DNA of 64,000 bases from Euryarchaeota archaeon UBA257. Its GTDB lineage: Archaea > Thermoplasmatota > Poseidoniia > Poseidoniales > Thalassarchaeaceae. Positions 14,346-33,968 of this stretch are shown piece after piece (the stretch's first letter is position 1; every line of letters starts with the position of its first letter). Where the stretch lies: NCBI GenBank assembly GCA_002498985.1, contig DAJO01000037.1, positions 3,356 through 67,355 on the forward strand, read 5' to 3'. The notes under the pieces are model-generated. The model saw only the letters and a program-made list of their open reading frames with translations. It was not told the DNA's origin and did not search any database. A program made the position numbers and the translations under genes.

Positions 14346-17300
14346 TTAATAATTTGGATCTTCAATCCATTCATTAGATTCTTCATCCCAAATCCATCCA
14401 TCAGTAGATTCTTCAACTTTAGAATCCATATTCTCCGTGGAGTCAATAGAAGAGATATCATCATTTTCATCATCACCATCATCTTCAATTTCTACAAAGA
14501 AATATACAAATACAGCCCCTAAGAGAGCCAGGATTACTATTGAAATTATTCCAATCATTAAACTTGACATGCCATCATCTGCAGCCCCTACTGAAATCTG
14601 AACACCACTTGAATAGTCCGAACCAACATATCTGAAATCAGGTGTGACTGGGCCTTCATCGAATCGAGAGGATGGGATATCTAGAGACCATGTAGAGTCA
14701 CTATTTACAACAGTATTATTGGCAGGCACCTTATTAATCAGAGCAGTGACTGTTTTTCCAGGTAATCCTACACCCGAGAATGTTACACTTTCTCCATCTT
14801 TAACAACAGTCACATCAGGAACATCAATTTGGAAACTTATTGGTATTACTGTGAAAGTAACGTCTAATGAAATTTCTTTAGAACCAAATGGATCAGTCGC
14901 TACGAAAATTACATTTTCTAATGTCCATGCATCCATATCGGAGTCGTAGAAGAACATAGAAATTGGATCATAGACAGCGATTCCATCCTGACCTACATTA
15001 ATTACTAATGCGAAATTATCATCGGAAGTTGCTTCAGAATCAAATACAGATAAAATTAGATCCTGTCCATTATCGATCTCTGTGAAGAATTGATTAAGAT
15101 CTATCTCAGCCTTAGTACATCTATCTTGTGATTGGGACTCAATTTCACAGTAAAGAGTTATTTCTTGCATCCAATTTTCTGAATTGAAAACAGGTTGATT
15201 ATTTCCAGCATCTGAAGGGTTATCAGCAATTATTGAAATTGTAGTCATATCACTGTAATCATATCCGTCATATGATCGGACATCAATCTCATATTCGAAG
15301 TCATGTTGTAAAATTGTTGGATCCCAAGTAGTTGACCATGCTCCATTAGTTTCAAAATCAGATACTGATTGTTGGTGAACGATGATATCTCCGTTGAAAA
15401 TATCTCTGACAGTGATATCTACTCTAGAAACAGAGCCATCATTATCTCTTGCAACACCCTCAATCGTATTATCAGAGACTGAAAGCCTTTCGCCATCCAT
15501 AGGTGTCAGTAAACTTACGAAAGGTGCTGAATTAGAATTGTCAATAGTCAATGTCATTGTTACTGGTTCGCATTCATCTATAACACTAAGACAAAAATCT
15601 GAATCTGATGCCCAAATTGTGAATGTGTATTCAGAAACAACTCTTGGTTGACCACTAAAGTCCCATGTCCATGACCAATCAGCACCACCAGTTGTTGGAG
15701 TTGTACCTTCGAAGTTAGGCCCGCTAATATAGAAATAAATTTCCCCTACATCTTGACTACAAGCAATAGGACAACCATATTGATCGTAAGCAGTTCCCTC
15801 GAATGTGACGGTACCATCTGACCAAGTTGAGCCATCGCTTGGAGTACTTACACTAATTACAGGAGGAGCCGCGTTCAACTTAATTGTCCTTGTAATAATT
15901 GGACTGTAATCGATTCCATCAAACGATCTAAACTCAAAAGTATAGTCAGTTTCTTGATACCCAGACATGTCAAATGAAAAATACCAAGAATTGAATGGGT
16001 GATTGAAACGCGTAACAGTCCCAGGTTCAGCCCCACTATCATCAACTGCCAGACCAGCAGAAGTCCATTCACTTGTGAAAGGATCTCTTACTTCTACAGA
16101 ATGGATATATCCTTTTTGATCCCATTGAGCTAATTCATCTGTAGCATAAAATCCTGCTAATTGACCGTCATGCGCAGAACCAGTAAAATTCACGACTTTC
16201 CTGAACGAATGACCTGTTTCTTGAATTACTGATATAGATGGACCTGTATTTACTAAATTTATTACATCTTGATACGTAGTATCTTGAATAATAAAGTCAT
16301 TTCTATCATAACCAAAGCCAAATTTGTATGCAGTGTAATAATAACGAGAAAGTTCCCTAGTTCCTGCACTATAATCACAATCATCATCGTTATTATCAAT
16401 CGTTAAATCACCATCATTGTCTATCCCATCGGAACATGAATCTTCATATTCATCGTCTGCAAAACCATCAGGGTTATCCCCTCCAGCAAGGCCTCGGAAA
16501 TCAAGATGCGAGTCTGATGCTAGTGCAAACCAGGGAGTGTATCCATCTTCATCAGTGTACAGTGAGTAGAGATCATTTCCTAGAGCATCTTCAATTAACA
16601 CATTTGCATTATCTACTTTCATCCCATCTACCAAGGTTTGGAACCTCACCATTTCAGCCCTTCTTACTTGAACTGCAAATTGAGTTGGCTGAGACTTGAT
16701 AAAAATCTTGGAGGTGTCGACATTTGAAAGATTGGCGAATGTAAAGACTGTAGAGTTATTATCCATATTAACTGCCAATGGGAAGTTTCTAGGTGTTAAA
16801 TTATCACAACTAGAACATTCAGAAATTGGTGTTGGAATTATAGCACCCTGGAATCCATTTGCAGGCCAAGCCTCTTGATCGGGCCAGTCTAGTATTACAG
16901 GATACTCACCAGGAGATGCACTTGGAATGAACTCAGATTGAACAGTTACAGAAGATTTAGTAATGTTATAAGCCGTTTCAATACCATTCCAAGTATTCAA
17001 TGAAAAGAAGCCAAGAGAGCCATATTGTTGTGTATTTGCAAATCCGCTATCATAATTTCGGATTACTGCTCCGGTGCCTGGAGTGTTAAACAAATTTCTT
17101 TGGACATCCATCAATCCACCTATTGCTCTGATACCATCGGCATCTCCGCCTAAGCTAAACTCATTGTCATAGAGTGTTACACCTGAACGGAATACACTTA
17201 CTGCAGGGCAGGTATATTCGCCACCCCAGTACTTGAAGCTAGAACAGGTTCCTGGTGAATTCACACTCACTGTATTATTCGTAAAATGAAGCCTGGATGC

Positions 17301-18575
17301 AGCAGGTGCAGGTCCAGAAGTAGATAATTCACCTACTTGAACTGGAGTTCTTGCAGTATCAGTAATTGTATTATATTCGGCAATAACATCAAAGGAACCT
17401 GTCAACCAAAGTCCATTCCAACCACCTATTGGTCCAATCTCATTATTGTGAATATGAGCCTTACTTGATTGTACAGTAATTCCTGAACGATCTGCTACTC
17501 CTGAAATTTGATTATTATGTAATTCAGCATCACCGCCGTCATAAACAGTGATTCCAGAACCCTCATCCGTATTTATTTCATTATTCCCTACTTCAAACGT
17601 ATATGCGACTCCTTGTATCGCTTTGACACCATTGATATCTATTCCATTACAATTCACATTTATGTCAGAGTTAGTAAGAAGACCTGAAGAACTCACAAAC
17701 GCAAATCCATAATCGCCAGTATTTACAGTAGCATCATTAATTTCTATGAATGTTTCTTGAGCCCATAATGTTGGACGGCCACCATCATTATTTCCACAGC
17801 CATTGTCGGTTCCAATAAAGAATGGAGAATTCATCTTAAGAGGAGTGATTTGTGTACCTGAACCATAAATTTGAACCGCTGAACCACCTACTCCACTTTT
17901 CCCATCATTTCCTGCAACATAAGTGCCCCCCTCAAATATTGGTTGAGCAAGATTAGTTGTTAATACACTGCTTGTATTGATATTGCTAAATCTCATTTGA
18001 GTTAAGGTGGGAGATGCTCCATCAATTACCATAGCCCCATATCGCCATCTGTTAATTGAATCAATGTAGTAAGGAATTCCCCAAGCATCATCTATTGTAA
18101 TATGCCTAAAGCCTGTTTCAGATAAATCAATAGAACTTCGAATTAGCACTCCCTCGAAGCAAGAAGCATCTTCAACCTGTATTTCTTGAGTACCTTGTTT
18201 CATACCTTTACACTCTCCAATTTCACTAGCATTGGAAGGATCAGTCCATCGGAAAGTGATTTTATTTGCCAAACTTGCATCGCCGGAGGAACCACAAGAA
18301 CTAGAACCAGCGCATAGATTTCCTCTTACATCAAGATATGTCCCATTTGGGAAAATAACAGTAGTTCCTGGTTGAATAATTAACTTAGCACCGGATGCGA
18401 TTGTAATGTCTCCGGTTAACTGATGAGTTCCTGACCATGTTTCTGAAGTTATAATAGTTCCAGAAGTAGTTTCATTATTAGCCATTACAGGGCTTGCAGG
18501 CCCTACTAGAGCGATTAACACGCTAGATAACATGAGAAATACTAGGAAGGAACTTCTTACTCGGCGCTTGGACAT
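14346..18575 (-). CDS. type-I membrane surface protein (1409 aa) with right-handed beta-helix and Ig-like domains
   Basis: Signal peptide. Pectate-lyase/NosD-like parallel beta-helix repeats (HNNEIGPIGG, YNTITDTART). Downstream beta-sandwich repeats. One C-terminal TM helix followed by an acidic, W-rich tail. Confidence 0.8.
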   Translation of the reverse strand: MSKRRVRSSFLVFLMLSSVLIALVGPASPVMANNETTSGTIITSETWSGTHQLTGDITIASGAKLIIQPGTTVIFPNGTYLDVRGNLCAGSSSCGSSGDASLANKITFRWTDPSNASEIGECKGMKQGTQEIQVEDASCFEGVLIRSSIDLSETGFRHITIDDAWGIPYYIDSINRWRYGAMVIDGASPTLTQMRFSNINTSSVLTTNLAQPIFEGGTYVAGNDGKSGVGGSAVQIYGSGTQITPLKMNSPFFIGTDNGCGNNDGGRPTLWAQETFIEINDATVNTGDYGFAFVSSSGLLTNSDINVNCNGIDINGVKAIQGVAYTFEVGNNEINTDEGSGITVYDGGDAELHNNQISGVADRSGITVQSSKAHIHNNEIGPIGGWNGLWLTGSFDVIAEYNTITDTARTPVQVGELSTSGPAPAASRLHFTNNTVSVNSPGTCSSFKYWGGEYTCPAVSVFRSGVTLYDNEFSLGGDADGIRAIGGLMDVQRNLFNTPGTGAVIRNYDSGFANTQQYGSLGFFSLNTWNGIETAYNITKSSVTVQSEFIPSASPGEYPVILDWPDQEAWPANGFQGAIIPTPISECSSCDNLTPRNFPLAVNMDNNSTVFTFANLSNVDTSKIFIKSQPTQFAVQVRRAEMVRFQTLVDGMKVDNANVLIEDALGNDLYSLYTDEDGYTPWFALASDSHLDFRGLAGGDNPDGFADDEYEDSCSDGIDNDGDLTIDNNDDDCDYSAGTRELSRYYYTAYKFGFGYDRNDFIIQDTTYQDVINLVNTGPSISVIQETGHSFRKVVNFTGSAHDGQLAGFYATDELAQWDQKGYIHSVEVRDPFTSEWTSAGLAVDDSGAEPGTVTRFNHPFNSWYFSFDMSGYQETDYTFEFRSFDGIDYSPIITRTIKLNAAPPVISVSTPSDGSTWSDGTVTFEGTAYDQYGCPIACSQDVGEIYFYISGPNFEGTTPTTGGADWSWTWDFSGQPRVVSEYTFTIWASDSDFCLSVIDECEPVTMTLTIDNSNSAPFVSLLTPMDGERLSVSDNTIEGVARDNDGSVSRVDITVRDIFNGDIIVHQQSVSDFETNGAWSTTWDPTILQHDFEYEIDVRSYDGYDYSDMTTISIIADNPSDAGNNQPVFNSENWMQEITLYCEIESQSQDRCTKAEIDLNQFFTEIDNGQDLILSVFDSEATSDDNFALVINVGQDGIAVYDPISMFFYDSDMDAWTLENVIFVATDPFGSKEISLDVTFTVIPISFQIDVPDVTVVKDGESVTFSGVGLPGKTVTALINKVPANNTVVNSDSTWSLDIPSSRFDEGPVTPDFRYVGSDYSSGVQISVGAADDGMSSLMIGIISIVILALLGAVFVYFFVEIEDDGDDENDDISSIDSTENMDSKVEESTDGWIWDEESNEWIEDPNY

Positions 18576-18673: not shown

Positions 18674-19912
18674 TTATTCCACATTAAAAGTAAAAGAGAT
18701 TTCCTGAGACCACTTGACTAAGTCCAAAGTGCCATAACCTGAATGGGAATTATGATTAGCAGATTCAAAGTTACTCCTATCGGAAGACCTTGCTAATGCA
18801 TGTTTGACAAGTTTCATTTCATCCTCATCAATATAGCCATCCGAACCTTCAATGGAATCCCCGCATTGTTGAATAATCAATGCCAAAGCTCCTGTAACAA
18901 ATACTGTGGAATCACTCGTCCCAGAAGAGTAAGCATATGGTGATGACAATGTGCTTGAGGCTGTAGAGAAGATATTAACTCCTGGAGCCACAACTTCTGG
19001 TTTTTGATTAGGGAAATCTCTTTCATCTCCTGTTACTGGATCAATCGATGAACCAAAGGCACTGCTACCCCATACATATCCAGATTTAGATATGGCTCCA
19101 ACCGAAATTACTCCCGGAAGGCTGGAAGGTTGAGAAACATCATTTATGTCTAAATCAAGCCCAGTATTTCCTGCGGCTGCTACAACGAAAATCCCTGAAT
19201 CTAATGCTTCTTGAACTGCTAGGTTAGTTTGGGAATCAATATTTGAAGTGAAATCACTAGGAGATCCGCCAAGGCTCAATGAAATAATATCTACTTTCTG
19301 AGTAATTCTACACCACCTAATAGCCTGTGCGACTCGATCGGTTGAACCAGATGTGCCTTCTGAATCCAATGCTAAAGCAACTGACAAACCTACTTCTGGA
19401 GCAACCCCCCTAAAAGTACCATTAGATATCAAGATTCCAGCCATTAATGTCCCATGTGAACTTTCACCGACGTCTCTAACTAACTCATGATTACCCCCTA
19501 CAAAATCTCTGAATCCTAATAATTGTTGATGAGAAAAATCAGGATGACTCATATCAATCCCAGTATCTACAATACAGACATGTACTCCTTGGCCAAAATA
19601 TCCTTCTGATTGTAATTGCCTGATTCCTGTATCTTCGTATGCCCATTCGGAGTCAGGAAGAATTGGTATGAGATATGAGTTAACCCATGGCCAACCAGCA
19701 ATTAACAATAGAGTCAATAAAGAGAAAAAAATAGCACCGGTAGGAGTTTCTGACTTTCTCATGGGACCCAGGGGCCAACGAAGCTGTTTGGCTTCCTCGT
19801 CAGTAAGGCCATAATCATCCCCAGAGTAGCCTAATGCTTGATTATCAATCGTAGTTAGGATACGGTGATCTTCGGGCTCAGGAAGTAAATCAAGATTCTC
19901 TAAAGACCTCAT
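18674..19912 (-). CDS. membrane-anchored subtilisin-like serine protease (peptidase S8)
   Basis: Catalytic triad blocks: Asp (VCIVDTGIDMSHPDF), His (HGTLMAGIL), Ser (SGTSDST). N-terminal TM helix. Confidence 0.85.
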   Translation of the reverse strand: MRSLENLDLLPEPEDHRILTTIDNQALGYSGDDYGLTDEEAKQLRWPLGPMRKSETPTGAIFFSLLTLLLIAGWPWVNSYLIPILPDSEWAYEDTGIRQLQSEGYFGQGVHVCIVDTGIDMSHPDFSHQQLLGFRDFVGGNHELVRDVGESSHGTLMAGILISNGTFRGVAPEVGLSVALALDSEGTSGSTDRVAQAIRWCRITQKVDIISLSLGGSPSDFTSNIDSQTNLAVQEALDSGIFVVAAAGNTGLDLDINDVSQPSSLPGVISVGAISKSGYVWGSSAFGSSIDPVTGDERDFPNQKPEVVAPGVNIFSTASSTLSSPYAYSSGTSDSTVFVTGALALIIQQCGDSIEGSDGYIDEDEMKLVKHALARSSDRSNFESANHNSHSGYGTLDLVKWSQEISFTFNVE

Positions 19913-19990: not shown

Positions 19991-22900
19991 TCAGAAAGGT
20001 GCGCCTGGACGGCGGCCAGAACGACCTTTGGTCAAATAAAGGCCGATTATCACTAATCCAATAATTAGGATATAAGCAATAATGTCTGTATTTTCATCAT
20101 CATCAACACTTGGTGACCTGACATCTACATTCATGACTCCCTGCTCTACACCATCACTAATGTGCCACGAGCCATCATCAATATTTTCTTCATCAAATCC
20201 AGTTGAGTTTATATCAAGCATGATATAATATTGATCAACTTGAATATCAGATAAATCAAACAAGAAACTGAACTGAGTAGATGATTCAGCAGATATATCC
20301 ATTGTCGTCGTAGCATTGACAGAAGTTGGAGAATTACAATCTACATCCCTACAAAGTTGAGCATTAAGTTGCACATTTTCAGCATCAACTAATCCACTAT
20401 TAGATATTGTAGCGATATATGTTATTTGGCCACCAGCTTCTGGTTCTCCGCCTCCCAATGCTTGAATTCCTTCAATCTTCAATACAGGTTCAGAACTTCG
20501 GACCTTAATTTCAATAGTATCGTATGAGTTTCCGGCTTTATCTGTCACTGAAACATAAATTAAGAACTCTTCATTCGGCATTGCGTCGCTTGGGGAAACA
20601 ACAGTCACACTATGAGAAGTACTGACGAAACTACCGATTGTGTGTGAAGTTGGACCTGTCCTACTCCAACCATCGGGCAATTCTGAATCGTCAAACTCAA
20701 ACTCATATTTTTCATCGCCATTTCCAGCATTTGTAAACTCTATTGGTATAGTAATTAATTCTCCTGGAGAGACTCCGTATACTTCAGACATAGGATTAGT
20801 AAGTTCGAAACCATGTATTTGAGGGACTCTGACTATCAAATCATGTGAAGCCAGATAACCATCTAGAGTTGAAATACTAATCGTAATCTTATGTCCGTCT
20901 TCGAAAGAATGTGCTACAGATTGATTAGGTGCGATTACACGGATATTCAAATTATCGAAATCAACGCTGTTGTCTAAACCTACTTCAAATTGCGTTGAAG
21001 TTGTCCAGTTTCCTGTACCGTTATGGAATTGAACTGTCCATTCAGAACTATCAGTTCCAGAAACAATACCTCCAACGGTAAATACATCATATGATTCATG
21101 ACCGAGGTAATCTACAGCGAGAGTGAAATCTACTGGGAAAAATCCATTTATTCCATCAACTTCTAATGAAACATCACCCAATGATCCAACATAATTTTCG
21201 TGACCTGAGGTTTCATTCAGTGTAGTAATTTCAATTTCGTGATTTGAAACTCTATTGAATAATAGGTCGATAGTTGTATTGAGACCTGGATAGACATCAA
21301 AGCCTCTTCCTGCAGTAAACTCCATGGTTAATCCTCTTTGCTCTACTTCAAAGTCGCCAGAAAATTGAACATTACCATTAGGAAGTAAAAGATTAAGATT
21401 TCCGGTTTCATCCACGCTTTGTATCCATTTCATTCCGAATCCAACATCGACTAATAAATTCGCATCTGAAATGTCTCCTAGATTACGTGAGTTACCGTCA
21501 TAATCTAACCATTCTGTTTGAACCTCAAGAATACCTCCACTAGTTAGTTCCATATCTAAATTATTTGAATTACCAGTAACATCAACATCCAATAGACCCA
21601 TTATTATCAAGTCCTGACTCGGTACGCTAGCACTTACTATCCATAGACCTGGTTCCAGTTCCGTAGACCAGCTTCCAGACCAATCATCATTGATTTCAAT
21701 TGCTACTGTATCTCTAACTAGACCCTCAGTAGGCATTATCATTAATTCGATATCTTCGACAGGAATACTGGAAATACCAAGTGCATAGGTAATATTTCCA
21801 TAAACATCAACTAGACCTGCAACTAATTCCAATTGCACATCATTAGGAGAGTCTGAAACAGATATACTTTCATTAATGCTTTCAAACCCATCATAAATAG
21901 TTTCAATTTGCCAGCTTGTATTGTATGGTACAAATAATTCCCATTCTCCTGTATTGTCCGTTGAAATTGAATGTTCGTTTGAATCAGATGTAGTTGTAAA
22001 CATCATCTGAACATCAGAAATTCCTTCACCTACATTAGAAGCATTGTTGTTATTCAAATCCCAGAAAACTGTTCCAGTTAAAGCAACATAAAGATTTGCA
22101 GTTAAATCAACATGATTTTCTCCCACTGAAATAGTAACGGGATAACTTTCTACAACCCATCTCTTTCCATCTTCAGTGTAGTTAAGAGAAATTAACCAAT
22201 CTCCCTCTACTACATCAACAGTAGTTAATCCACTGCTATTTGTCGCCTCGATACTGAAAGAACCTAGGTCACTTGCAGACTCCATTAACAAACTAACTCC
22301 TGACAAAGGAGAGCTAGTAGAATCTTCTGATACATTGAATGAAATCTCTGCGAGTTGACTAGTAGAGAATGTTAAACTTTCAGAAGTGATGTCAGATGAT
22401 ACTGAAATCAAATCTCTTAACCCTTCTTTAATATCATTATTTACTATCTCTGTAGTAGCAATCCAATCACCCTGAGGGAAGAAATCAATAATACTTCCAT
22501 TAGAATCGGTAGTTCGAGAAAGAACCCAGCCATTTTCAACATTAGTGAATCTAACTAATTGTTCAGACAAATCACCACCACTTTCATTGGTAAATGACAT
22601 TTCTACTCTCCATTCAGGATCAAATCCAATACTTCTTGTAATATCTGTTGAGTCAATTCCTACTCTGACATCAACATCTCCACTCATTATTCTAGTTCCG
22701 AATAAATCTCCGGAGTTAGGATCAGCAATATCTACAGATATCCTGTAAATTCCTGCCTCTACTGTGACTTGGGCAATCCCTTCGTCAGTCCAATCACTTG
22801 AAGTGGAATTGATATGGTAGTCAATTCCATCAACTAAAGATAGTAAACTGAAATCATAAGTTACTGGAGTACCGTTAGACATATTATTATCTGCAGAATT

Positions 22901-25900
22901 GTCTAGGAAGAAATCAATAGTTAATATTGAATCATCTGGATAGATTATTACTTCAATAGTATTATTGTTATTATCTACATTCGTAGTATTGGTACCTGAA
23001 GTAATTTCATCTGACAAAACTGTGAATTCCCATTCACCCTTAGGTAAAACCATAGTAAAGAAACCACCATCATCTGTTTCTGAGCGCCATGTGACATCAT
23101 ATTCATCACTCTGTGCTATTACTGTAACAGGTTCCCAACCACCAATCTCTGAATTGAATAGGTTGTTTTCTCGATTGACACTTACTGCTCCATCAATTGC
23201 TTGCCCTGGGCGAGCAACCATCGTGATCTTATCCATATTTTCTTCAACTGTAAACTTCGTTCCATTTACTAACTTCAAATCTACACCTAATTGAGCAATT
23301 GCATCAACTTCAGAGCCTACAGGCAAAACAATACTGAATGTACCATCTGATGAAGTTTCAACTGTTGTACTAAAATCATCCCAATAGAAATCAATAGATA
23401 CGAACTCTAATGTTTTATCTGTATCGATAGTATCTGATTGAATATTTTCATCATAATATAGAGTACCATTTACAGTCTGACTTGTATAGAAACTAAATGT
23501 GTCTGTAAAATCAGAATTTGCTATAACTTCAATTTCTTCCCATAATTGTTCGGTTGCGGACAATGTGTAGTTTAAAATCCAAGTCCCAGGAGTTAACTCG
23601 ACATAATAATGACCCGATAAATTATCATATTCCGAATCTACTGGAGATCCTGAACCATTTTTCTGATTAAAGGTTAAATCAAGTCCTTCTACAAGATTAT
23701 CTGTGCCATTATCTGAATTAATTAATTGGAATGTAAGATCCGTAGTAAGGGGCATTGGAGAGGGAAGAATAATTGATGATTCCGTGTTAGAATCTACTGT
23801 GAACTCCAACGAAGTTTCGGGGAAATTATCTCCATCAATATCGATTGATGCAATGTATGAACCCGGCATAATTGGGCCGAACTCAATCTTAGAACCAGTA
23901 AGTAAATCATTTTCATAAGTTAATTCAGGATGAATATTGCACGGCGCATATTTTACAACTTCACAATCACCAATATTTTCTACATCTGAAGAACCGTCAG
24001 CGGATTCAAGAAGAACATGAGAATCAAGATAGTTCCCCGATTCGTCTATCAATATTCCTGAAATTAATCCACCATTGATATCTATATCTGTTGGGGTGCC
24101 AGAAATAGTTTGAGAGATGAAGAATCCATCATCAATTTCTACACGTGTATCGTCGCTGAAAATTACTGCAACATCATAAGAACCAGGAATTGCATCTACT
24201 ACATGGAATGTACCAGGCTGAACCATTACGCCACTGAATATCCCCATTCCAGAGAATGAGCCTGTCGCGTTGATTGTACCATAACTACTCAAATTTTTAT
24301 TAGATGTATCTGTTGAAAATACTCCTGAACCAATTAGAGTTGATTGTACTAGCTTTTGTGTAAATGATGCAACTCCATCTGCTGTGAAAAGTCCGCTTGC
24401 ATTTACAATTCCATCGAGAAGGTATTTCCCATCAGATTGCATGCACAAACTATTATTTTCAGGCATGGTTTCATTAACATCACAATCAATAATATTCTCA
24501 AAATCATCATTGATAATTCCGTCAATAATTCCTTTACCTGCAAATTCACCTTCTCCAGTTATGCTGTAGTTATTGAATATGGTTTGAGTGTAATTTCCAG
24601 TGAAATCAGAAATTGTCGCTATAGTTGATGTAATCACATCACCTTCTCCAGTAAAGGTAACCTCACCAGTACCATCAAACCTCAAATCATCACCCATTAT
24701 CGAACCATTTGATGTTGAAATCAGATATGGTGATGTCACTATAGAATCCCATGAAGGTGAAAGTTCAATAGTAGCATCTTCAAGAGAGTTACCAGAAAAT
24801 ACTTCTGAACCAGACCAAACTAGTCTTCCTATCGAGGAAGCTGGGCTGACAGAAATAGAAACTGGGATAATTGATTCGCCGTTACTGTGACCATCATCTC
24901 CAGAAATATTCACTATGGTTTCTGAAAGCCAAGTTGAACCCGACACATTGCCCAATATACCAGTAATTGGATTTAGAGCACGTACACCTGTAGTTTCAGT
25001 CTCGAAAATATCTCCCAAAGACTGCCCTACATTTGAGGTCATTATTTGAGTTCTTGCTGCTTCAAGATCGGATTCTCCATAAAATGCAGAAACGCGAATC
25101 TTCCCAGAAGGTGCTAAGAAACTGAAATCACCGTTTGAATCTGCGTCTGCAGTTCCTATTGGAATCCAGTAAGTTCTTTGATCCCTATCTGTAACCTGTC
25201 CATCTATTTCTACTTCATCACCACTAAATGCATCTCTTTCAATCAGAAGTCTAGCATTAGGCACAGGACCTATTCCCTCTAGTTCCACTGTTCCTTCAAT
25301 AGTGGCACCACTGTAATATTTCATGACTTTGACTTGGGTATTAGCACTACCTATACCCAAATTTTCACATTCTGAATCTAATTGAGTACCGTTCTCATCA
25401 GTTTCACAGTCAGGAGTATACCAATTTGAAAGAACTAGGTGATTCATCATAGCACCTGGGAGAGGATATGCATTCTCTAGGTATGAACCAGGGGCACCGG
25501 AGGTGTAGAAATGAGGTGCTGGTTGTTCTGCTTCACCAGGTAAACCTAAGGTAGAGCTTCCATATCCTACATAAATTCTAGCAACCATAGTGTCGAAGAA
25601 CTCAGGCTGGTGTTGGTAGTCGATATCAACCATTCTAATCATTTCATTTACATCTGTTAATGCACCAGATTGTTGGCGAATAACATCGTTTAGATATTCA
25701 CTTTCATATTCTTCTCCAGTTCGAGGAATAATGGGGCCATCCCCTCTCTGTGTTTGATAAACGGATGAGATGTAAGTTTCAGTATCTAAACCAGAAAGTG
25801 AAGTAGGTGCATGGAAAATTCCAGTAGTTTGACCTTGGTGATAACCATAGTCTTCGTAATACTGGCCGCCTAGAGGATAGAGACGATTATCAACTGCGAA

Positions 25901-28900
25901 ATATCTAATTTCATTGTTTCTAGAAATTGTTTCTCCAAGAACTCCTTCGTAATCTTGGACATCATACACAAGTTTAGTTGACATATCATGGTATAAATCG
26001 TTAATTTCTTCGGAATTGAAAATCTCTAACAGTAAAGCACGGCTTAATGCTAACTTTGCATTAACTCTGTGCAATCCAGTAGATACATCGTCAAAGTCTT
26101 CAATCAAATCAGGAGTATATCTGTATCCAGAAATATCGTAATACTGGATTATTAATTCGCCTTTGTTTGCGCCTTTTTCATATCTATCTAATTCTGAAAC
26201 TGAGTTTCTAGCATCATTAAAGCTATCAATTGCTGATTCTTCGTTAGATAATCCATCAACTATTATCTCCCCATCTTCTAAAATAACCCAAACTTCGGAT
26301 TCACTAGGTAGGCCGTTAGATTCTAAATGGAATCCACGTAATAATTCATGTTCACCATCTACTGCTACTACAGACATAGAACGATCAAGTACTATTTTTG
26401 AATCACCCGTACCAAGACTCATAATTTTATCAAATTCACTTAATTGTGAATCGTCCATATGCCCGTCCAAGAGTAAATTTCTGAAATCATCAGTAAATCC
26501 AGATGGAGCATTCGACCTTCGATCCCCTTGGGCTAAAGTAGTAATGAATAGGGAAACAGTATCTTCTTGACTAGCAGAAAGTAACATAGCACCGCTATTA
26601 GGTATCCCAGACTGGAAGTTGTCTGCTACCGTAGGGTGCTCACCCTGAGCAAGTGCCTGGAAACCATAATCCCACCATGATACGAAAGCGGGACGTTCAG
26701 AAAAGCTGACTTCAGTATCTTGTTCAGATAACCATTCATAAGCTAAATTCCATGAACCTGAATTAAAACCTGGTCCGAATGTTCCCATATACCATAAGTC
26801 ACCGTTAGCATCATAGTTCTCGCTATTCAATAATGAAAATCCTAGAACTTCCTGTCTGAAGATATCAGGAGTTATATCATGAATTGTTTGATCGACATCG
26901 GACGCAGACTGTTCACCGCGAGGAATTCCTGAATCAATTCCATATGTCATGTGCTGAGAACAAACCAGCATCAACACCATCATCAAAGCAGGAACTCCTG
27001 GGTGCCTCCTCGACGCTTTCCAGTTGGCCCAGAAACGTGACCTTGGTGTTGAAATACCAGACTTTCTCCATTCTTTGAGGAATCCTGAGAAGTTAGCATA
27101 ATTCCACATCATAGCGATACCAATTCCTCCAACTACCGAGATTGCAGGAGTTGCGTTGAAAATGAATCTTCCAGCTGACCAAGCCATGTAAATAGCAATT
27201 AAAACCCATAGCCCTAGCAGAATATGGCTCTGTTTTTCTTTTCTTGCACCTCTCCATAGTAACATTACAGCAACAAATATTGCAATAAGTGAAACTATTG
27301 GACCATAAGATGCGAATAAAACACCTCTACTAGGTGCCTGGGCCTCTCCAATGGTTCCGAATATTTTATTCTTTGAGAAATAGAATCCTCCGGTGAATAA
27401 AACATCCCATCCATCATAGATGTTTGCCTGTTGTAAAACATATAATATAGCCAAAATTGACCCCATTAATACAGCAGTGCTGCCTAGAACCAATAACCAA
27501 GGTTTATCGCGATAGGATGAAGAAACCCAACCCAAAGCTAGCGTGAAACCAATAATGTAAAACATAGGTTGGAATCCACTAGGATCGAACAATAAACTTA
27601 GTCCAGGCCAGCAATAGAAAGGTAATGGGATTACAAATGCAGTAAGCATCATTTGCAAAGATGCTGCAGTAATTGGAAGGCTGTCCCTTCTACGGAACAT
27701 ATTGAAAAATATCTGGAATGCAAAAGCAATGAATAAAATTCCAGGACCATAAACGAAACCTTTCCACCCTAAAGCTACAACAGCGAAAGATACACCAGAC
27801 AAAGTAGCATTAGACATAACTACAGGATTTGTAGACCACATTTGCCTTATACCAGCAATAATGTAGAGCGGGCTTAGACTTGGTGTTTTGAATAATCTTT
27901 CATTCTTCAGTTCATCCATGGCCTTGACCCAATAGTAAAATGCGATTGCTAAGAACAGCATTGCGAATGCGTCGTGATCGGCAAGTCCGAATGTCGAATG
28001 GCCGATATGACCGGGCATTAATGCGATTAACCAGGCTGCAACTATTCCCGCCATATTACTGTGCAATTTTCTAGCAAGACCAGCAATTGGTAACACGATT
28101 AATGCTCCAAAAATTGCAGGTAAAGAGGCTACGCTCCACCACACAGAGGTTTCCAAAGACATTCCAGATAACCAAGAAAGGAAAAGTCCTCCAAGTGCTA
28201 AAGACCACGAGAATAGTGGTGGTCTAGGATTGATTGCTACCATCGGGTAAGCTCTATCTGCGTCAATAATCAGATGGCTCTTTTGGTATACAACATAATC
28301 TACTACACGTTTCATGTACCATGGATCAGACCCTCCTGACATATCCCATAGTCCAGTACCAGATGCATTCATAGCAGGTAGAACATTCCAACCTGTTCGA
28401 ACTGCTAAACCAATAATTAGTGCTGAACCTACCATAATACCGTAAGAGTTTTGATTCCACCATTTACGGAAATCTGAATGTTCTCTACGTGGAGATATAT
28501 CTCCAAACATACCACGGCCAGCTACCATCATTGCCCCCACATTAAGCCAGAAAACTAGCAAGAACCAGGTAAACATACTGACATTATCTTCACCATTCAA
28601 AGTTGAAAGTGGTAAATCATTTCCAATCTCTGCTAAATGAGCCAAAGTATACATTAACCAATTTAGAGCAACAACTGTACCCAATACGTGCCATCTTTCT
28701 GAATTACAAAAAGAAACGAAAAGAACTACTATTGAAGTAAATAATGCCCAAACTGAGCCCAAGTAATAATGATTATTATATGATGTAACATCATCTATGG
28801 TGCTCAGCCAAATTAATGGAATTAAGTTGATTAAAAATATAATTCCAGCAGTGATTAAACCGGCTTGAGGCATTACAGACGGGATATCTCGGAACCATGG

Positions 28901-29497
28901 ACCTTGTCCCGGATTTGTCCCTCTGCCTCTAATTGCTAAAGTAACGAGTATTCCCAATGTGATTGATGCTATCCAGAATGCGAAGAAAACAGAAGCAATA
29001 GAGCCTCTAGTTAAATCAACTAATTCATCTGGGCTTCCACTCCATGAAGATTCGTCAAGAGTATATCTAGTAGCAAAAGAAATCGCTAGATGGAAACCAA
29101 GTACCACTGAAAGTAAAATTGATGATTCCTCATTCCAATTATTTTTATCTAAGAAAATAGTAGAAACAAAAACGAAAGCGAACGTAAATCCTTCCATAGG
29201 GACAATTGGAGTAAACTCAGGCGCTAATAACGAAAATATAATCGCGGACAATGAACTCAGGATAATAATCAAATTACTTTTTGACGATTGGTCCACAACG
29301 ATTCTACCGATAAACGCGGCTAAAGCAGCGATAACCGGTAGGATCAGGAGGTCAGCATATCCGTCGTTCTCAATTCCACCATTAGCGACATAATCAGTCC
29401 CAAAGAAAAGTACCATCAAAGTTGCTAGTACAGCAGGGACCGGGAGTAAATTCTTATTTGAAAAACCTCCCTTTGTCGCATCATTATCATCGTTCAT
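19991..29497 (-). CDS. aglB: giant oligosaccharyltransferase AglB/STT3 fusion (3168 aa)
   Basis: Polytopic STT3 core with WWDYG catalytic motif (AFVSWWDYGFQALA) and a DxD-containing first loop. It is preceded by about 330 aa of extra TM helices. It is followed by about 2200 aa of beta-rich extracellular repeats ending in a TM helix and a basic tail. Confidence 0.85.
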   Translation of the reverse strand: MNDDNDATKGGFSNKNLLPVPAVLATLMVLFFGTDYVANGGIENDGYADLLILPVIAALAAFIGRIVVDQSSKSNLIIILSSLSAIIFSLLAPEFTPIVPMEGFTFAFVFVSTIFLDKNNWNEESSILLSVVLGFHLAISFATRYTLDESSWSGSPDELVDLTRGSIASVFFAFWIASITLGILVTLAIRGRGTNPGQGPWFRDIPSVMPQAGLITAGIIFLINLIPLIWLSTIDDVTSYNNHYYLGSVWALFTSIVVLFVSFCNSERWHVLGTVVALNWLMYTLAHLAEIGNDLPLSTLNGEDNVSMFTWFLLVFWLNVGAMMVAGRGMFGDISPRREHSDFRKWWNQNSYGIMVGSALIIGLAVRTGWNVLPAMNASGTGLWDMSGGSDPWYMKRVVDYVVYQKSHLIIDADRAYPMVAINPRPPLFSWSLALGGLFLSWLSGMSLETSVWWSVASLPAIFGALIVLPIAGLARKLHSNMAGIVAAWLIALMPGHIGHSTFGLADHDAFAMLFLAIAFYYWVKAMDELKNERLFKTPSLSPLYIIAGIRQMWSTNPVVMSNATLSGVSFAVVALGWKGFVYGPGILFIAFAFQIFFNMFRRRDSLPITAASLQMMLTAFVIPLPFYCWPGLSLLFDPSGFQPMFYIIGFTLALGWVSSSYRDKPWLLVLGSTAVLMGSILAILYVLQQANIYDGWDVLFTGGFYFSKNKIFGTIGEAQAPSRGVLFASYGPIVSLIAIFVAVMLLWRGARKEKQSHILLGLWVLIAIYMAWSAGRFIFNATPAISVVGGIGIAMMWNYANFSGFLKEWRKSGISTPRSRFWANWKASRRHPGVPALMMVLMLVCSQHMTYGIDSGIPRGEQSASDVDQTIHDITPDIFRQEVLGFSLLNSENYDANGDLWYMGTFGPGFNSGSWNLAYEWLSEQDTEVSFSERPAFVSWWDYGFQALAQGEHPTVADNFQSGIPNSGAMLLSASQEDTVSLFITTLAQGDRRSNAPSGFTDDFRNLLLDGHMDDSQLSEFDKIMSLGTGDSKIVLDRSMSVVAVDGEHELLRGFHLESNGLPSESEVWVILEDGEIIVDGLSNEESAIDSFNDARNSVSELDRYEKGANKGELIIQYYDISGYRYTPDLIEDFDDVSTGLHRVNAKLALSRALLLEIFNSEEINDLYHDMSTKLVYDVQDYEGVLGETISRNNEIRYFAVDNRLYPLGGQYYEDYGYHQGQTTGIFHAPTSLSGLDTETYISSVYQTQRGDGPIIPRTGEEYESEYLNDVIRQQSGALTDVNEMIRMVDIDYQHQPEFFDTMVARIYVGYGSSTLGLPGEAEQPAPHFYTSGAPGSYLENAYPLPGAMMNHLVLSNWYTPDCETDENGTQLDSECENLGIGSANTQVKVMKYYSGATIEGTVELEGIGPVPNARLLIERDAFSGDEVEIDGQVTDRDQRTYWIPIGTADADSNGDFSFLAPSGKIRVSAFYGESDLEAARTQIMTSNVGQSLGDIFETETTGVRALNPITGILGNVSGSTWLSETIVNISGDDGHSNGESIIPVSISVSPASSIGRLVWSGSEVFSGNSLEDATIELSPSWDSIVTSPYLISTSNGSIMGDDLRFDGTGEVTFTGEGDVITSTIATISDFTGNYTQTIFNNYSITGEGEFAGKGIIDGIINDDFENIIDCDVNETMPENNSLCMQSDGKYLLDGIVNASGLFTADGVASFTQKLVQSTLIGSGVFSTDTSNKNLSSYGTINATGSFSGMGIFSGVMVQPGTFHVVDAIPGSYDVAVIFSDDTRVEIDDGFFISQTISGTPTDIDINGGLISGILIDESGNYLDSHVLLESADGSSDVENIGDCEVVKYAPCNIHPELTYENDLLTGSKIEFGPIMPGSYIASIDIDGDNFPETSLEFTVDSNTESSIILPSPMPLTTDLTFQLINSDNGTDNLVEGLDLTFNQKNGSGSPVDSEYDNLSGHYYVELTPGTWILNYTLSATEQLWEEIEVIANSDFTDTFSFYTSQTVNGTLYYDENIQSDTIDTDKTLEFVSIDFYWDDFSTTVETSSDGTFSIVLPVGSEVDAIAQLGVDLKLVNGTKFTVEENMDKITMVARPGQAIDGAVSVNRENNLFNSEIGGWEPVTVIAQSDEYDVTWRSETDDGGFFTMVLPKGEWEFTVLSDEITSGTNTTNVDNNNNTIEVIIYPDDSILTIDFFLDNSADNNMSNGTPVTYDFSLLSLVDGIDYHINSTSSDWTDEGIAQVTVEAGIYRISVDIADPNSGDLFGTRIMSGDVDVRVGIDSTDITRSIGFDPEWRVEMSFTNESGGDLSEQLVRFTNVENGWVLSRTTDSNGSIIDFFPQGDWIATTEIVNNDIKEGLRDLISVSSDITSESLTFSTSQLAEISFNVSEDSTSSPLSGVSLLMESASDLGSFSIEATNSSGLTTVDVVEGDWLISLNYTEDGKRWVVESYPVTISVGENHVDLTANLYVALTGTVFWDLNNNNASNVGEGISDVQMMFTTTSDSNEHSISTDNTGEWELFVPYNTSWQIETIYDGFESINESISVSDSPNDVQLELVAGLVDVYGNITYALGISSIPVEDIELMIMPTEGLVRDTVAIEINDDWSGSWSTELEPGLWIVSASVPSQDLIIMGLLDVDVTGNSNNLDMELTSGGILEVQTEWLDYDGNSRNLGDISDANLLVDVGFGMKWIQSVDETGNLNLLLPNGNVQFSGDFEVEQRGLTMEFTAGRGFDVYPGLNTTIDLLFNRVSNHEIEITTLNETSGHENYVGSLGDVSLEVDGINGFFPVDFTLAVDYLGHESYDVFTVGGIVSGTDSSEWTVQFHNGTGNWTTSTQFEVGLDNSVDFDNLNIRVIAPNQSVAHSFEDGHKITISISTLDGYLASHDLIVRVPQIHGFELTNPMSEVYGVSPGELITIPIEFTNAGNGDEKYEFEFDDSELPDGWSRTGPTSHTIGSFVSTSHSVTVVSPSDAMPNEEFLIYVSVTDKAGNSYDTIEIKVRSSEPVLKIEGIQALGGGEPEAGGQITYIATISNSGLVDAENVQLNAQLCRDVDCNSPTSVNATTTMDISAESSTQFSFLFDLSDIQVDQYYIMLDINSTGFDEENIDDGSWHISDGVEQGVMNVDVRSPSVDDDENTDIIAYILIIGLVIIGLYLTKGRSGRRPGAPF

Positions 29498-29616: not shown

Positions 29617-30876
29617 TCAGAGCCCTTTATGGGCAATGTCTTTTCTAAAATATGAACCTTCTAATTCTATGTTCTCAATTACTTCATACGCGGCTTCAAC
29701 TGCTAAACCTAAATTAGGCGCTATTCCGGTTGCTGCGAGCACACGACCACCATCAGAAATTAATGTACCTTCATTAGAAATCATGGCACCAGCATAATGG
29801 ACAAAGGCACTGATTTCTCCTTCCTCAATTCTTGTTTCTGTACCCGTGATTACTCTACCAGTAATTGAATTGGAAGGATAACCTTCTGAGCACAAAACAA
29901 TGGTTGCCGATGAGTGCGGAAATATATTATATTCGCATTCAGAAATTTTGCCATTTGCACAAGACATCAACAACTCCCCTAAATCGCTTGAGATTAATGG
30001 TAACGTCACTTGTGTTTCTGGATCTCCAAAACGGACATTAAATTCTACTACAAAAGGGGCACCATTCTGATCTATCATTAGTCCGACATATAGGCAACCA
30101 CGATAAGGCACATCCTGATTTCTAAGGAAATGATGCATAGGCTCAATGATTTCTGAAATTGTCCTCTGTTCTACAGCAGGTGTATAAACCGGAGCAGGAG
30201 CATAAGCTCCCATACCACCTGTATTTGGGCCATTATCGCCGTCCAGAAGACGTTTATGGTCTTGACTTGCAGGTAAACAAACATAACCTGATTCATCCAT
30301 TACTACCAAAACTGACGCTTCTTCACCAAATAGGAATTCTTCAAGAAGGACTTTTCCATCCAACTCTATTCCATCTTTCAGAGCATTAAAGGCTTCATTA
30401 CGATCAGATGTTACAACTACTCCTTTACCACCTGCAAGGACATCTCTCTTCACCACCCAAGGAGGTGAATAGATATCTAATGAGTCATTAATTTGGTCAA
30501 TTTTTTCTATCAATATCAGACCAGCTGTTGGGACTTTCATCGATTGCATGACCTCCTTTGCATGCAATTTCGAACCTTCTAATTTAGCACCTATTGAATT
30601 AGGGCCGAAACAAGGAATTTCTTCTTCTGAGAGCCTATCAGATAAGCCAGCAACTAGTGGCGCTTCAGGACCAACCACTACCAAATCTATATTCAATTTT
30701 TTAGCTAAATCAATTATTCCCTCAATATCCATTGAATCTACTTTATAATTAGTCCCTGAAATAGCCGTACCTGCATTCCCGGGGCATGAATGAACATGAT
30801 TTACTGAGTCCGATTCTGAGAGACGTAGGGCTAGAGCATGCTCTCGGCCACCACTGCCTACAATGAGTACTTCCAT
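29617..30876 (-). CDS. purD: phosphoribosylamine--glycine ligase
   Basis: MEVLIVGSGGREHALA N-terminus, ATP-grasp blocks, and the full PurD architecture. Start chosen at Met4 of the track ORF. Confidence 0.92.
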   Translation of the reverse strand: MEVLIVGSGGREHALALRLSESDSVNHVHSCPGNAGTAISGTNYKVDSMDIEGIIDLAKKLNIDLVVVGPEAPLVAGLSDRLSEEEIPCFGPNSIGAKLEGSKLHAKEVMQSMKVPTAGLILIEKIDQINDSLDIYSPPWVVKRDVLAGGKGVVVTSDRNEAFNALKDGIELDGKVLLEEFLFGEEASVLVVMDESGYVCLPASQDHKRLLDGDNGPNTGGMGAYAPAPVYTPAVEQRTISEIIEPMHHFLRNQDVPYRGCLYVGLMIDQNGAPFVVEFNVRFGDPETQVTLPLISSDLGELLMSCANGKISECEYNIFPHSSATIVLCSEGYPSNSITGRVITGTETRIEEGEISAFVHYAGAMISNEGTLISDGGRVLAATGIAPNLGLAVEAAYEVIENIELEGSYFRKDIAHKGL

Positions 30877-30942
30877 GCCAGTCATGTTCGTCCGATGGAG
30901 TAAGGGAATTAATGAATTCTAATGCCGTATTGTAAAATAAAA

Positions 30943-33960: not shown

Positions 33961-33968
33961 ATTTAGCG

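What the first reader, a model, noticed from the sequence alone, without database searches (positions are those of the whole stretch)
19991..29497. 3168-aa tripartite AglB/STT3 oligosaccharyltransferase fusion
The ORF carries a clear STT3 catalytic core (WWDYG, a DxD-containing loop, and about 13 TM helices). It is preceded by roughly 330 aa of additional TM helices. It is followed by about 2200 aa of extracellular beta-sandwich repeats and a terminal TM anchor. Canonical archaeal AglB is 600-1050 aa. An OST fused in cis to a very large, probably self-glycosylated extracellular scaffold would be an unusual organisation of the N-glycosylation machinery. It also sits inside a surface-glycoprotein island.
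Basis: partly seen in the sequence, partly recalled or inferred. Interest (0 to 1): 0.75.

Follow-up and report, generated by a model that had tools for sequence, protein, structure and literature searches.

The report
Giant three-part archaeal N-glycosylation enzyme
This real 3168-residue gene of marine group II archaea (Poseidoniales) encodes the enzyme that attaches sugars to surface proteins, fused to an unknown 10-helix membrane module and a long sugar-site-rich outer stalk re-anchored in the membrane; this form is three times larger than any studied version and is standard across this abundant ocean lineage.

Summary
Window 19991-29497 (-) is one uninterrupted 3168-aa ORF. It has three parts:
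- an orphan 10-helix N-terminal membrane module (aa 1-335);
- a complete AglB/STT3 oligosaccharyltransferase (aa 336-~1480), with 13 TM helices and D391, D507-H-D509, T715-I-G-E718 and WWDYG 941-945 all invariant;
- about 1650 aa of transthyretin/Cna-B-like beta-sandwich domains, ending in a TM anchor and a conserved RRPxAPF tail.

It is not an artefact. More than 100 full-length collinear homologues (32-99% identity) come from independent MAGs and single-cell genomes. There is one copy per genome among the top 80 GTDB hits, all Poseidoniales. dN/dS is 0.02-0.11 in every segment. A published MGIIb MAG annotates the same 9.5-kb gene as transcribed aglB.

The long C-terminal extension with its anchor is older than this lineage: 77 of 83 related 2000-2900-aa Thermoplasmatota cluster representatives have it. 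The N-terminal module was seen only in the ~3150-3300-aa forms, all labelled Poseidoniales or Euryarchaeota where labelled.

Sequons are enriched 1.65-fold in the extension and many are conserved, which fits self-glycosylation.

What the two extra modules do is inferred, not shown. I rate this a new variant of a known kind. I found no description of it in the searchable literature.

The parts
19991..29497 (-). Whole ORF, 3168 aa plus stop: giant AglB/STT3
   Evidence: Full-length collinear homologues. dN/dS 0.067 overall.
28493..29497 (-). N-terminal extension, aa 1-335: orphan 10-TM module, N-terminus cytoplasmic
   Evidence: AF2 predicts 10 helices with pLDDT 80-90. Positive-inside rule: K+R 10 versus 0. 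Invariant across 16 divergent sequences: E123, F171, R190, G191, E267, W269, W280, G292, W311, F316. No Pfam or PDB homologue. Not a duplicate of the STT3 TM domain. dN/dS 0.085.
26933..28492 (-). STT3 GT-C transmembrane domain, aa 336-855, 13 TM helices
28316..28336 (-). GGSDPWY, aa 388-394: first catalytic Asp, D391, in external loop 1
   Evidence: Aligns to AfAglB GGNDPWY (D47). G and D are invariant across the broad family. Coordinates checked.
27971..27979 (-). D507-H-D509: second acidic (DxD-type) motif
   Evidence: Aligns to AfAglB D-H-H (D161/H163). Invariant in Poseidoniales. Coordinates checked.
27344..27355 (-). T715-I-G-E718: TIXE motif of external loop 5
   Evidence: T, E and A are invariant in the broad family alignment. 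Aligns to AfAglB TIAE. Coordinates checked.
26663..26677 (-). WWDYG, aa 941-945
   Evidence: Invariant in all alignments.
25058..26932 (-). AglB periplasmic domain, aa 856-1480: core with WWDYG, alpha/beta insertions, a variable Cys-containing loop around aa 1360-1385, and a final transthyretin-like peripheral domain
20090..25057 (-). C-terminal extension, aa 1481-3136: array of transthyretin/Cna-B-like beta-sandwich domains, acidic and sequon-rich
24233..24703 (-). G-rich 'GxGxF' segment, aa 1599-1755, predicted as very long beta strands with a conserved Cys pair; fold not identified
   Evidence: AF2 pLDDT 84-92, DSSP strand runs of up to 42 residues. Conserved G/F/C columns.
21833..22030 (-). 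CarboxypepD_reg domain, aa 2490-2555
   Evidence: Pfam PF13620, 35.6 bits against a cutoff of 32.3 when the segment is scanned alone.
19994..20089 (-). C-terminal TM anchor (aa 3137-3160) plus basic cytoplasmic tail ending RRPGAPF
   Evidence: Hydropathy 2.37. A C-terminal TM is present in 112 of 118 giants and 77 of 83 of the 2000-2900-aa relatives. 105 of 118 giants end in RRx(1-3)AP[FLY]. dN/dS 0.021.
18674..19912 (-). Subtilase S8 gene immediately downstream; conserved neighbour in Poseidoniales
   Evidence: Pfam PF00082, E=1e-39. Same position in L001-L003, L086 and SIMO Bin 19-2. Absent next to the Thermoplasmata 2449-aa form.
14346..18575 (-). 1409-aa secreted beta-helix/Big_7 protein with a C-terminal TM; conserved neighbour and a possible substrate
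   Evidence: Pfam. Termini. Synteny.
29617..30885 (-). purD (GARS) immediately upstream; conserved neighbour that marks a housekeeping context
   Evidence: Pfam. Synteny.

Best explanation
This is the genuine, catalytically competent AglB of a marine group II archaeon (Poseidoniales, family Thalassarchaeaceae-like). AglB is the oligosaccharyltransferase that moves a lipid-linked glycan onto Asn in N-X-S/T sequons on the outer face of the cytoplasmic membrane. Here it is built as one 24-TM polypeptide.

Shown:
- The 13-TM GT-C core and its periplasmic domain carry every canonical catalytic motif, and this is the most strongly constrained part of the protein.
- It is preceded by a conserved orphan 10-TM module whose N-terminus is cytoplasmic.
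- It is followed by a rod or arch of roughly 16 transthyretin/Cna-B-like beta-sandwich domains. This array returns to the same membrane through a C-terminal TM helix with a conserved basic tail.

Inferred:
- The extracellular array is itself N-glycosylated at conserved sequons, in cis or by neighbouring copies.
- The array acts as a structural element of the cell envelope: a double-anchored, glycosylated stalk or spacer in the style of SlaB or NOMO. It would hold the enzyme in, or organise, the surface layer formed by the giant secreted proteins encoded nearby.
- The N-terminal module, with invariant intramembrane and interfacial E, R and W residues, is an accessory membrane module. It could serve lipid-linked donor handling or partner docking.

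The enzyme is probably the cell's general OST, because only one copy per genome was seen.

For: **A real single gene.** More than 100 collinear full-length homologues at 32-99% identity. The 80 best GTDB loci come from 80 different assemblies, 79 labelled archaeal/Poseidoniales and one labelled Deltaproteobacteria (probably mislabelled), including SAGs. Synteny is conserved.

**Purifying selection on all segments.** dN/dS 0.017-0.108.

**Transcribed in the sea.** The 9.5-kb aglB next to purD in MAG SIMO Bin 19-2 shows log2FC 2.05 in samples where genus O1 is transcriptionally active (PMC9723583).

**Double anchoring is conserved.** C-terminal TM in 112 of 118 giants and 77 of 83 shorter relatives.

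**Glycosylation of the extension.** 37 sequons against about 22.5 expected. N1530 and N2208 are conserved in 100% of sequences, N1743 in 98% and N2078 in 91%, against a background of about 48% residue identity.

**Topology of the N-module.**
Against: - No biochemical or proteomic evidence exists for activity, for glycan occupancy, or for the polypeptide staying intact.
- The DK/MI motif could not be assigned.
- AF2 confidence is low (pLDDT 30-50) around EL1, EL5 and the WWDYG loop, because the alignment was shallow.
- aa 2401-3168 were not modelled.
- The N-terminal module has no detectable homologue or fold match, so its role is a guess.
- A second, distant AglB paralogue elsewhere in Poseidoniales genomes was not excluded. 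The genome scan kept only the best 80 of 481 relatives.
- A purely structural role does not obviously explain why the array must be fused to the enzyme.
Confidence: 0.6

Rival explanations
1. Accessory-subunit model. The two extra modules are functional parts of the glycosylation machine rather than envelope structure, making this a cis-encoded counterpart of the non-catalytic subunits of the eukaryotic OST complex. The N-module would handle the dolichol-linked donor or dock the Sec translocon. The beta-sandwich array with its TM anchor would capture or hold unfolded secreted substrates near the active site, as ribophorins, OST48 and Ost3/6 are thought to do.
For: - Invariant charged and aromatic residues lie inside the N-module.
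- The part of the extension nearest the enzyme (aa 1481-1800) is more conserved than the distal part: 0.58-0.71 against 0.41-0.54 identity.
- A luminal beta-sandwich plus single TM plus short cytosolic tail is the build of OST48/Wbp1 and the ribophorins (established knowledge, not tested here).
- There are 24 TM helices in total, against 28 in yeast OST (my own knowledge).
Against: - No sequence or fold similarity to any OST accessory subunit was found.
- About 16 tandem Ig-like domains is far more than needed for substrate capture.
- Comparable arrays in bacteria and archaea are typically structural stalks or adhesins.
Confidence: 0.2
2. Precursor (polyprotein) model. The extension is exported using the enzyme's last TM helix as a signal-anchor and is glycosylated in cis. 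It is then cleaved off, for example by the conserved adjacent S8 subtilase, to give a separate C-terminally anchored surface (S-layer-like) glycoprotein.
For: - The S8 protease gene sits immediately downstream in all Poseidoniales loci examined.
- The extension has its own TM anchor.
- It resembles the S-layer stalk protein SlaB.
- It has the highest observed sequon density and the second-highest observed-to-expected ratio among the large surface proteins in the window.
Against: - No variable or disordered linker exists at the core/extension junction. aa 1398-1600 are confidently folded and 62-71% identical across the family.
- The related 2449-aa Thermoplasmata form has the same extension and anchor without an adjacent protease.
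- The subtilase ORF has no obvious signal peptide.
Confidence: 0.12
3. Specialised second OST. The cell has another, canonical AglB elsewhere. This giant form glycosylates only the neighbouring giant surface proteins.
For: - It is conserved next to several huge secreted proteins.
- Some archaea, such as A. fulgidus, carry several AglB paralogues (established knowledge).
- The paralogue question could not be fully tested.
Against: - There is one locus per assembly among the 80 best GTDB hits.
- Every relative above 40% identity in 1.84 billion representatives is a giant or a fragment of one.
- In the stored part of the annotation table for MAG SIMO Bin 19-2, the two GT66 entries displayed are this gene (significant) and one weak hit (E=0.068). 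Three further occurrences were not displayed and the file is truncated.
Confidence: 0.06
4. Artefact or pseudo-enzyme. The ORF is a mis-assembly or read-through fusion of adjacent genes, or the STT3 part is catalytically dead and the protein is just an adhesin.
For: The ORF is extremely long. One Thermoplasmata relative appears split into three ORFs on a long-read contig.
Against: - The same length and collinearity appear in more than 100 independent assemblies and in SAGs.
- M1 and the C-terminal APF are conserved.
- The STT3 core is the most constrained segment (dN/dS 0.017), with all catalytic motifs invariant.
Confidence: 0.02

Closest known systems
Archaeal AglB, long type (Archaeoglobus fulgidus AglB-L, PDB 3WAJ/5GMY; CAZy GT66)
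   Same: 13-TM GT-C fold. Catalytic D in EL1, the D-x-H/D motif, TIXE in EL5 and WWDYG are all shared. The periplasmic core ends in a transthyretin-like peripheral domain.
   Different: AfAglB-L is 868 aa. This protein adds 335 aa (10 TM) in front and about 1690 aa behind: a beta-sandwich array, a second membrane anchor and a tail. The equivalent AglB part is also about 280 aa longer because of insertions.
2000-2900-aa STT3 proteins of uncultured Thermoplasmata/Thermoplasmatota (e.g. NCBI MFA5772382.1 = P0137, 2449 aa)
   Same: 27-37% identical STT3 core. They share the conserved block at aa 1130-1500. They have a long CarboxypepD_reg/SdrD_B/CARDB-type C-terminal array and a C-terminal TM with basic tail.
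   Different: They have no 10-TM N-terminal module: the match starts at query aa 335-390. Their extension is shorter by about 500-900 aa. They lack the RRPxAPF terminus, and the one locus examined (P0137) has no adjacent subtilase. Their array matches NOMO2 strongly (E=4e-26), whereas the Poseidoniales array matches only marginally (E=0.06).
Eukaryotic multi-subunit OST (STT3 with ribophorins, OST48/Wbp1, Ost3/6 and others)
   Same: A catalytic STT3 is combined with extra TM helices and with luminal beta-sandwich domains tethered by a single TM and a short cytosolic tail. This is a resemblance of architecture only.
   Different: In eukaryotes the additions are separate subunits. No homology between them and the modules here was detected.
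Beads-on-a-string transthyretin/Cna-B Ig arrays: NOMO (BOS complex), B. anthracis TIE protein, Gram-positive pilins, Sulfolobus SlaB
   Same: The domain fold matches, and so does the tandem arrangement. NOMO and SlaB also share the C-terminal single TM anchor.
   Different: Those proteins are not fused to an enzyme and are anchored at one end only. Sequence similarity of the Poseidoniales array to NOMO2 is not significant.
NCBIfam TIGR04154 (archaeosortase A system-associated STT3)
   Same: It is the best-scoring NCBIfam model, covering aa 355-980.
   Different: The score of 164 bits is far below the 450-bit cutoff. No PGF-CTERM-type signal is present, and the C-terminus is TM plus RRPxAPF.

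Membership tests
AglB/STT3 oligosaccharyltransferase (GT66, Pfam PF02516) | N-terminal 13-TM GT-C fold domain | tested here: met
AglB/STT3 oligosaccharyltransferase (GT66, Pfam PF02516) | Catalytic Asp in external loop 1 (AfAglB D47 / PglB D56) | tested here: met
   GGSD391PWY aligns to GGND47PWY. Invariant across the broad family.
AglB/STT3 oligosaccharyltransferase (GT66, Pfam PF02516) | Second acidic metal-binding motif (DxD / DxH / DxE) | tested here: met
   D507-H-D509 aligns to AfAglB D161-H-H163. Invariant in Poseidoniales.
AglB/STT3 oligosaccharyltransferase (GT66, Pfam PF02516) | TIXE/SVSE motif in external loop 5 | tested here: met
   T715-I-G-E718. T, E and A are invariant in the 29-sequence broad alignment. 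Aligns to AfAglB TIAE.
AglB/STT3 oligosaccharyltransferase (GT66, Pfam PF02516) | WWDXG motif in the periplasmic domain | tested here: met
   WWDYG at aa 941-945, invariant.
AglB/STT3 oligosaccharyltransferase (GT66, Pfam PF02516) | DK or MI motif on the helix facing WWDXG | tested here: inconclusive
   The helix at aa 977-995 carries conserved Q977, D979, T980, F984, I985 and D992. No DxxK or MxxI pattern could be assigned, and the AF2 model is of low confidence in this region.
AglB/STT3 oligosaccharyltransferase (GT66, Pfam PF02516) | Transfer of a lipid-linked glycan to Asn of N-X-S/T | not testable with these tools
   This needs an enzyme assay or glycoproteomics.
TIGR04154 archaeosortase A-associated STT3 | Score above the curated cutoff (450 bits) | tested here: not met
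   164.3 bits.
CarboxypepD_reg / transthyretin-like domain (PF13620) | Domain score above the gathering threshold and a transthyretin-like fold | tested here: met
NOMO (BOS complex subunit) family | Significant sequence match to NOMO domains | tested here: not met

The most novel reading that the evidence does not exclude
The giant AglB would be a single-chain equivalent of a multi-subunit OST or translocon-associated machine. In this reading the orphan 10-TM module and the NOMO-like, C-terminally anchored Ig array are working accessory parts, serving donor-lipid handling, translocon docking, substrate holding or envelope-distance ruling. The NOMO-like array of the wider Thermoplasmatota family would be evolutionarily related to eukaryotic NOMO. 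That would place an ER-lumen spacer or multipass-translocon component in physical fusion with the archaeal OST.
Probability: 0.1. Interest if true: 0.85.

Novelty: new variant of a known kind. Interest (0 to 1): 0.6.

Why it matters
Poseidoniales are among the most abundant archaea in the surface ocean and remain uncultured. Their envelope and glycobiology are essentially unknown.

All structural and mechanistic work on archaeal OSTs uses single-subunit enzymes of 600-1050 aa. Here the order-wide standard enzyme is a 24-TM, 3168-aa protein. It has an orphan membrane module and a double-anchored, probably glycosylated Ig-domain array. Related 2000-2900-aa forms are common in uncultured Thermoplasmatota.

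This gives three things:
- a natural experiment on how non-catalytic modules are added to an OST, in cis here and in trans in eukaryotes;
- a candidate major envelope component for cryo-ET and metaproteomic studies of marine archaea;
- a conserved, easily recognised marker gene for the lineage.

If the extension truly organises or measures the envelope, it links protein glycosylation to cell-surface architecture in one polypeptide.

Tried and rejected
- **Self-BLASTP for repeats:** nothing at E<=10. Only profile self-alignment showed repeats.
- **N-terminal module:**
  - No Pfam hit for the query or for 16 divergent members; best recurring hit was DUF898 at E>=0.5.
  - It is not a duplication of the STT3 TM domain and has no internal 5+5 duplication (hhalign probability <1%).
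  - No stand-alone homologous gene lies upstream of the Thermoplasmata form that lacks the module.
- **Archaeosortase-type sorting signal:** no PGF motif, and TIGR04154 scores below its cutoff.
- **Second AglB in Poseidoniales:** the genome scan returned only the best 80 of 481 relatives, all giants and one per assembly. A distant paralogue is therefore not excluded. The MAG annotation table in PMC9723583 is truncated.
- **afdb50 fold search:** library unavailable.
- **Literature:** five full-text searches combined AglB, STT3, oligosaccharyltransferase or N-glycosylation with Marine Group II, MGII, Poseidoniales, Thermoplasmata or Thermoplasmatota. Three more general searches were also run, and the 2024 archaeal N-glycosylation review was read. 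None describes oversized AglBs. The gene is merely listed as aglB in one MAG table.
- **'Short' relatives (600-1200 aa):** several of the ten looked up share 90% clusters with ~2100-2200-aa members, so they are probably fragments of those genes. Others, such as 1194 and 1211 aa, may be genuinely shorter.
- **Horizontal-transfer island idea:** GC is uniform at 0.36-0.41, housekeeping genes flank the region, and synteny is conserved.
Full report
**1. The observation**

Window 19991..29497 on the minus strand is a single ATG-initiated ORF of 3168 codons. GC is uniform across the window at 0.36-0.41. The neighbours are archaeal housekeeping genes: purD, CDP-archaeol synthase, archease, RtcB, AlaRS and DnaJ. 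They are interleaved with several very large secreted proteins.

The middle of the ORF is an STT3/AglB.
- Pfam PF02516 matches aa 389-646 at 58.7 bits. NCBIfam TIGR04154 matches aa 355-980 at 164 bits, which is below its 450-bit cutoff.
- The best solved relative is Archaeoglobus fulgidus AglB-L.

**2. Anatomy**

*(a) N-terminal extension, aa 1-335.*
- AF2 predicts ten helices with pLDDT 80-90.
- The loops predicted to be cytoplasmic hold 10 Lys+Arg and the outer loops hold none. The module therefore starts and ends in the cytoplasm and hands over correctly to STT3 TM1.
- Across 16 sequences down to 21% identity, E123, F171, R190, G191, E267, W269, W280, G292, W311 and F316 are invariant.
- It has no Pfam, NCBIfam or PDB relative.
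- It has no specific fold match.
- It is not a copy of the STT3 membrane domain.

*(b) AglB proper, aa 336-~1480.*
- It has thirteen TM helices.
- GGSD391PWY aligns to the catalytic GGND47PWY of AfAglB.
- D507-H-D509 aligns to D161-H-H163.
- T715-I-G-E718 is the TIXE motif of external loop 5.
- WWDYG lies at aa 941-945.
- These residues are invariant in a 29-sequence alignment that reaches 24% identity.
- The DK/MI motif could not be assigned.

*(c) C-terminal extension, aa 1481-3136.*
- The AF2 model of aa 1201-2400 (pLDDT 78.6) is almost entirely beta from aa 1398 onward.
- Foldseek matches tandem Ig-like arrays: B. anthracis TIE protein (E=2e-11), Cna-B repeats, Gram-positive pilins and SlaB.
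- BLASTP sees no repeats. Profile self-alignment shows that aa 1771-2203 repeat at aa 2248-2669 (probability 97%) with sub-shifts of about 90 aa.
- For aa 2400-3136 there are only Pfam hints: CarboxypepD_reg above threshold at aa 2490-2555, and weak NPCBM_assoc, Big_3_2, DUF11 and CARDB hits at aa 2910-3090.
- A G-rich segment (aa 1599-1755) is predicted with high confidence as unusually long strands. It remains unexplained.

*(d) C-terminus.* A TM helix (aa 3137-3160) is followed by the tail KGRSGRRPGAPF.

In total there are 24 TM helices and about 2280 aa of extracellular polypeptide held at both ends.

**3. It is not an artefact**

- A search of 5.8 billion proteins found 411 relatives. The best 120 are nearly all 3140-3340 aa, with 100% coverage at 40-99% identity, and come from many independent assemblies.
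- A 57-sequence alignment is collinear with few gaps over all 3168 positions.
- In GTDB species representatives, the 80 best loci come from 80 different assemblies. Those named below phylum level are Poseidoniales of both families (Thalassarchaeaceae 55-95%, Poseidoniaceae about 48-50% identity), including single-cell genomes. One contig is labelled Deltaproteobacteria.
- The window is 95% identical to contig NZDA01000007.1.
- Gene order is kept at 40-51% identity: carS, purD, aglB, S8 subtilase, 1410-aa beta-helix protein, STAND/TPR ATPase, MBL, 1900-aa TSP3 protein.
- Against an 87%-identical orthologue, dN/dS is 0.085 for the N-module, 0.017 for the STT3 membrane domain, 0.037 for the periplasmic domain, 0.09-0.11 for the extension and 0.021 for the anchor and tail.
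- A published MGIIb MAG table lists the same gene (9.5 kb, after purD, followed by a 'halolysin') as aglB/GT66. It is transcribed in coastal metatranscriptomes and enriched when genus O1 is transcriptionally active (PMC9723583).

**4. Wider family**

- An exhaustive phmmer search of 1.84 billion cluster representatives with aa 1-1200 gave 757 hits.
- Forms with the N-module are all about 3150-3300 aa, reach down to 32% overall identity, and are labelled Poseidoniales or Euryarchaeota where labelled.
- The next tier, at 27-37% identity, comprises more than 80 clusters of 2000-2900 aa. They start at the STT3 core with no N-module. They share the aa 1130-1500 block and, in some cases, weak collinear similarity across aa 1760-3030.
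- 77 of 83 of these also end in a TM helix plus basic tail.
- Where named, they are Thermoplasmata or Thermoplasmatota MAGs.
- Several apparent short relatives share 90% clusters with ~2100-2200-aa members and so look like fragments of those genes.
- The extension-plus-anchor is therefore ancestral to a broad uncultured clade. The 10-TM module, the extra domains, the RRPxAPF terminus (105 of 118 giants) and the adjacent subtilase were seen only in Poseidoniales-type forms. The subtilase is absent in locus L084.
- A profile dominated by the non-Poseidoniales forms hits human NOMO2 at E=4e-26. The Poseidoniales profile reaches only E=0.063.

**5. Glycosylation of the extension**

- 37 of the protein's 43 sequons lie in aa 1401-3130. 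That is 2.14 per 100 aa against 1.30 expected from composition, and is the highest observed density among the large surface proteins of the window, although one neighbour has a higher observed-to-expected ratio.
- Several sequons are far more conserved than the background of about 48% residue identity: N1530 and N2208 at 100%, N1743 at 98%, N2078 at 91%.
- This supports glycosylation of the array but does not prove it.

**6. Mechanism**

Shown:
- an intact, strongly constrained OST catalytic unit;
- a constrained orphan membrane module;
- a constrained extracellular array of transthyretin/Cna-B-like domains anchored at both ends.

Inferred:
- the enzyme is the general AglB of these cells;
- the array is glycosylated and serves as a structural stalk, arch or spacer of the envelope, by analogy with SlaB and NOMO;
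- the N-module is an accessory membrane module.

Rivals are scored in the report sections:
- a true accessory-subunit role (0.2);
- a cleaved precursor of a surface glycoprotein (0.12);
- a specialised second OST (0.06);
- an artefact or a dead enzyme (0.02).

The junction between core and extension is well folded and conserved. This argues mildly against cleavage.

**7. Novelty**

The gene is annotated in databases as an STT3-domain protein or as dolichyl-phosphooligosaccharide-protein glycotransferase, and as aglB in one MAG table. Eight full-text searches and a recent review found no description of its size or architecture. The library lacks most subscription journals, so this is absence of evidence only.

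It is a member of a known enzyme family with two unprecedented fused modules, so I rate it a new variant of a known kind. The interest is moderate to high because of the abundance of the lineage, the threefold size jump, the orphan 10-TM module and the parallel with multi-subunit OSTs.

Noticed in passing
L050 (JAOMAZ010000025.1): This contig is labelled 'Deltaproteobacteria bacterium isolate AH-558-G13' (a single-cell genome). It carries a Poseidoniales-type giant AglB core at 52% identity, so the contig is probably mislabelled or contaminated.
   Followed up: no
P0227, P0278 and P0279 on one 1.48-Mb contig: Three ORFs of 954, 663 and 597 aa cluster with a 2201-aa Thermoplasmata AglB. The gene is split, either by frameshift errors in a long-read assembly or because it is a pseudogene.
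   Followed up: no
window 24233-24703 (aa 1599-1755 of the AglB): This is a conserved G-rich 'GxGxF' segment with a Cys pair. AF2 predicts it (pLDDT 84-92) as very long beta strands, with one run of 42 residues. It differs from the surrounding beta-sandwiches, and its fold was not identified.
   Followed up: partly
window 5034-19912 and loci L001-L003, L086: A gene string downstream of aglB is conserved at 40-51% identity: S8 subtilase, a 1409-aa beta-helix/Big_7 protein with a C-terminal TM, an 842-aa HTH+STAND ATPase+TPR protein, an MBL-fold protein, and a 1906-aa TSP3-repeat protein. It may be a functional envelope module.
   Followed up: partly
window 45351-52511 (-): A 2386-aa secreted protein with DUF7151 and a MAM domain. 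It has a C-terminal TM helix and an unusual poly-acidic, Tyr-rich cytoplasmic tail (DEDYYYDDDEEEYEEDDWEYEEED).
   Followed up: no
window 33484-33972 (-) and 42394-43890 (+): Archease and RtcB, the tRNA-splicing ligase and its activator, lie 8 kb apart. Between them are a 1015-aa TSP3 protein, an aminotransferase and AlaRS.
   Followed up: no
L084/L085 (Thermoplasmata MAG, P0137 locus): The 2449-aa AglB without the N-module sits directly after an ORF of more than 8300 aa and a 1077-aa Ig/PKD-like protein. The association of giant AglBs with giant surface proteins therefore recurs outside Poseidoniales.
   Followed up: no
alignment A3 against PDB 9c7v_B: The C-terminal arrays of the non-Poseidoniales giant AglBs match human NOMO2 (BOS complex) at E=4e-26. 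Weak Pfam hits to NOMO-specific domain models also appear. I did not resolve whether this is more than generic CarboxypepD_reg similarity.
   Followed up: partly
window 1-64000: No glycosyltransferase, flippase or other agl pathway gene accompanies aglB anywhere in the 64-kb window. This contrasts with the agl gene clusters of several model archaea.
   Followed up: yes
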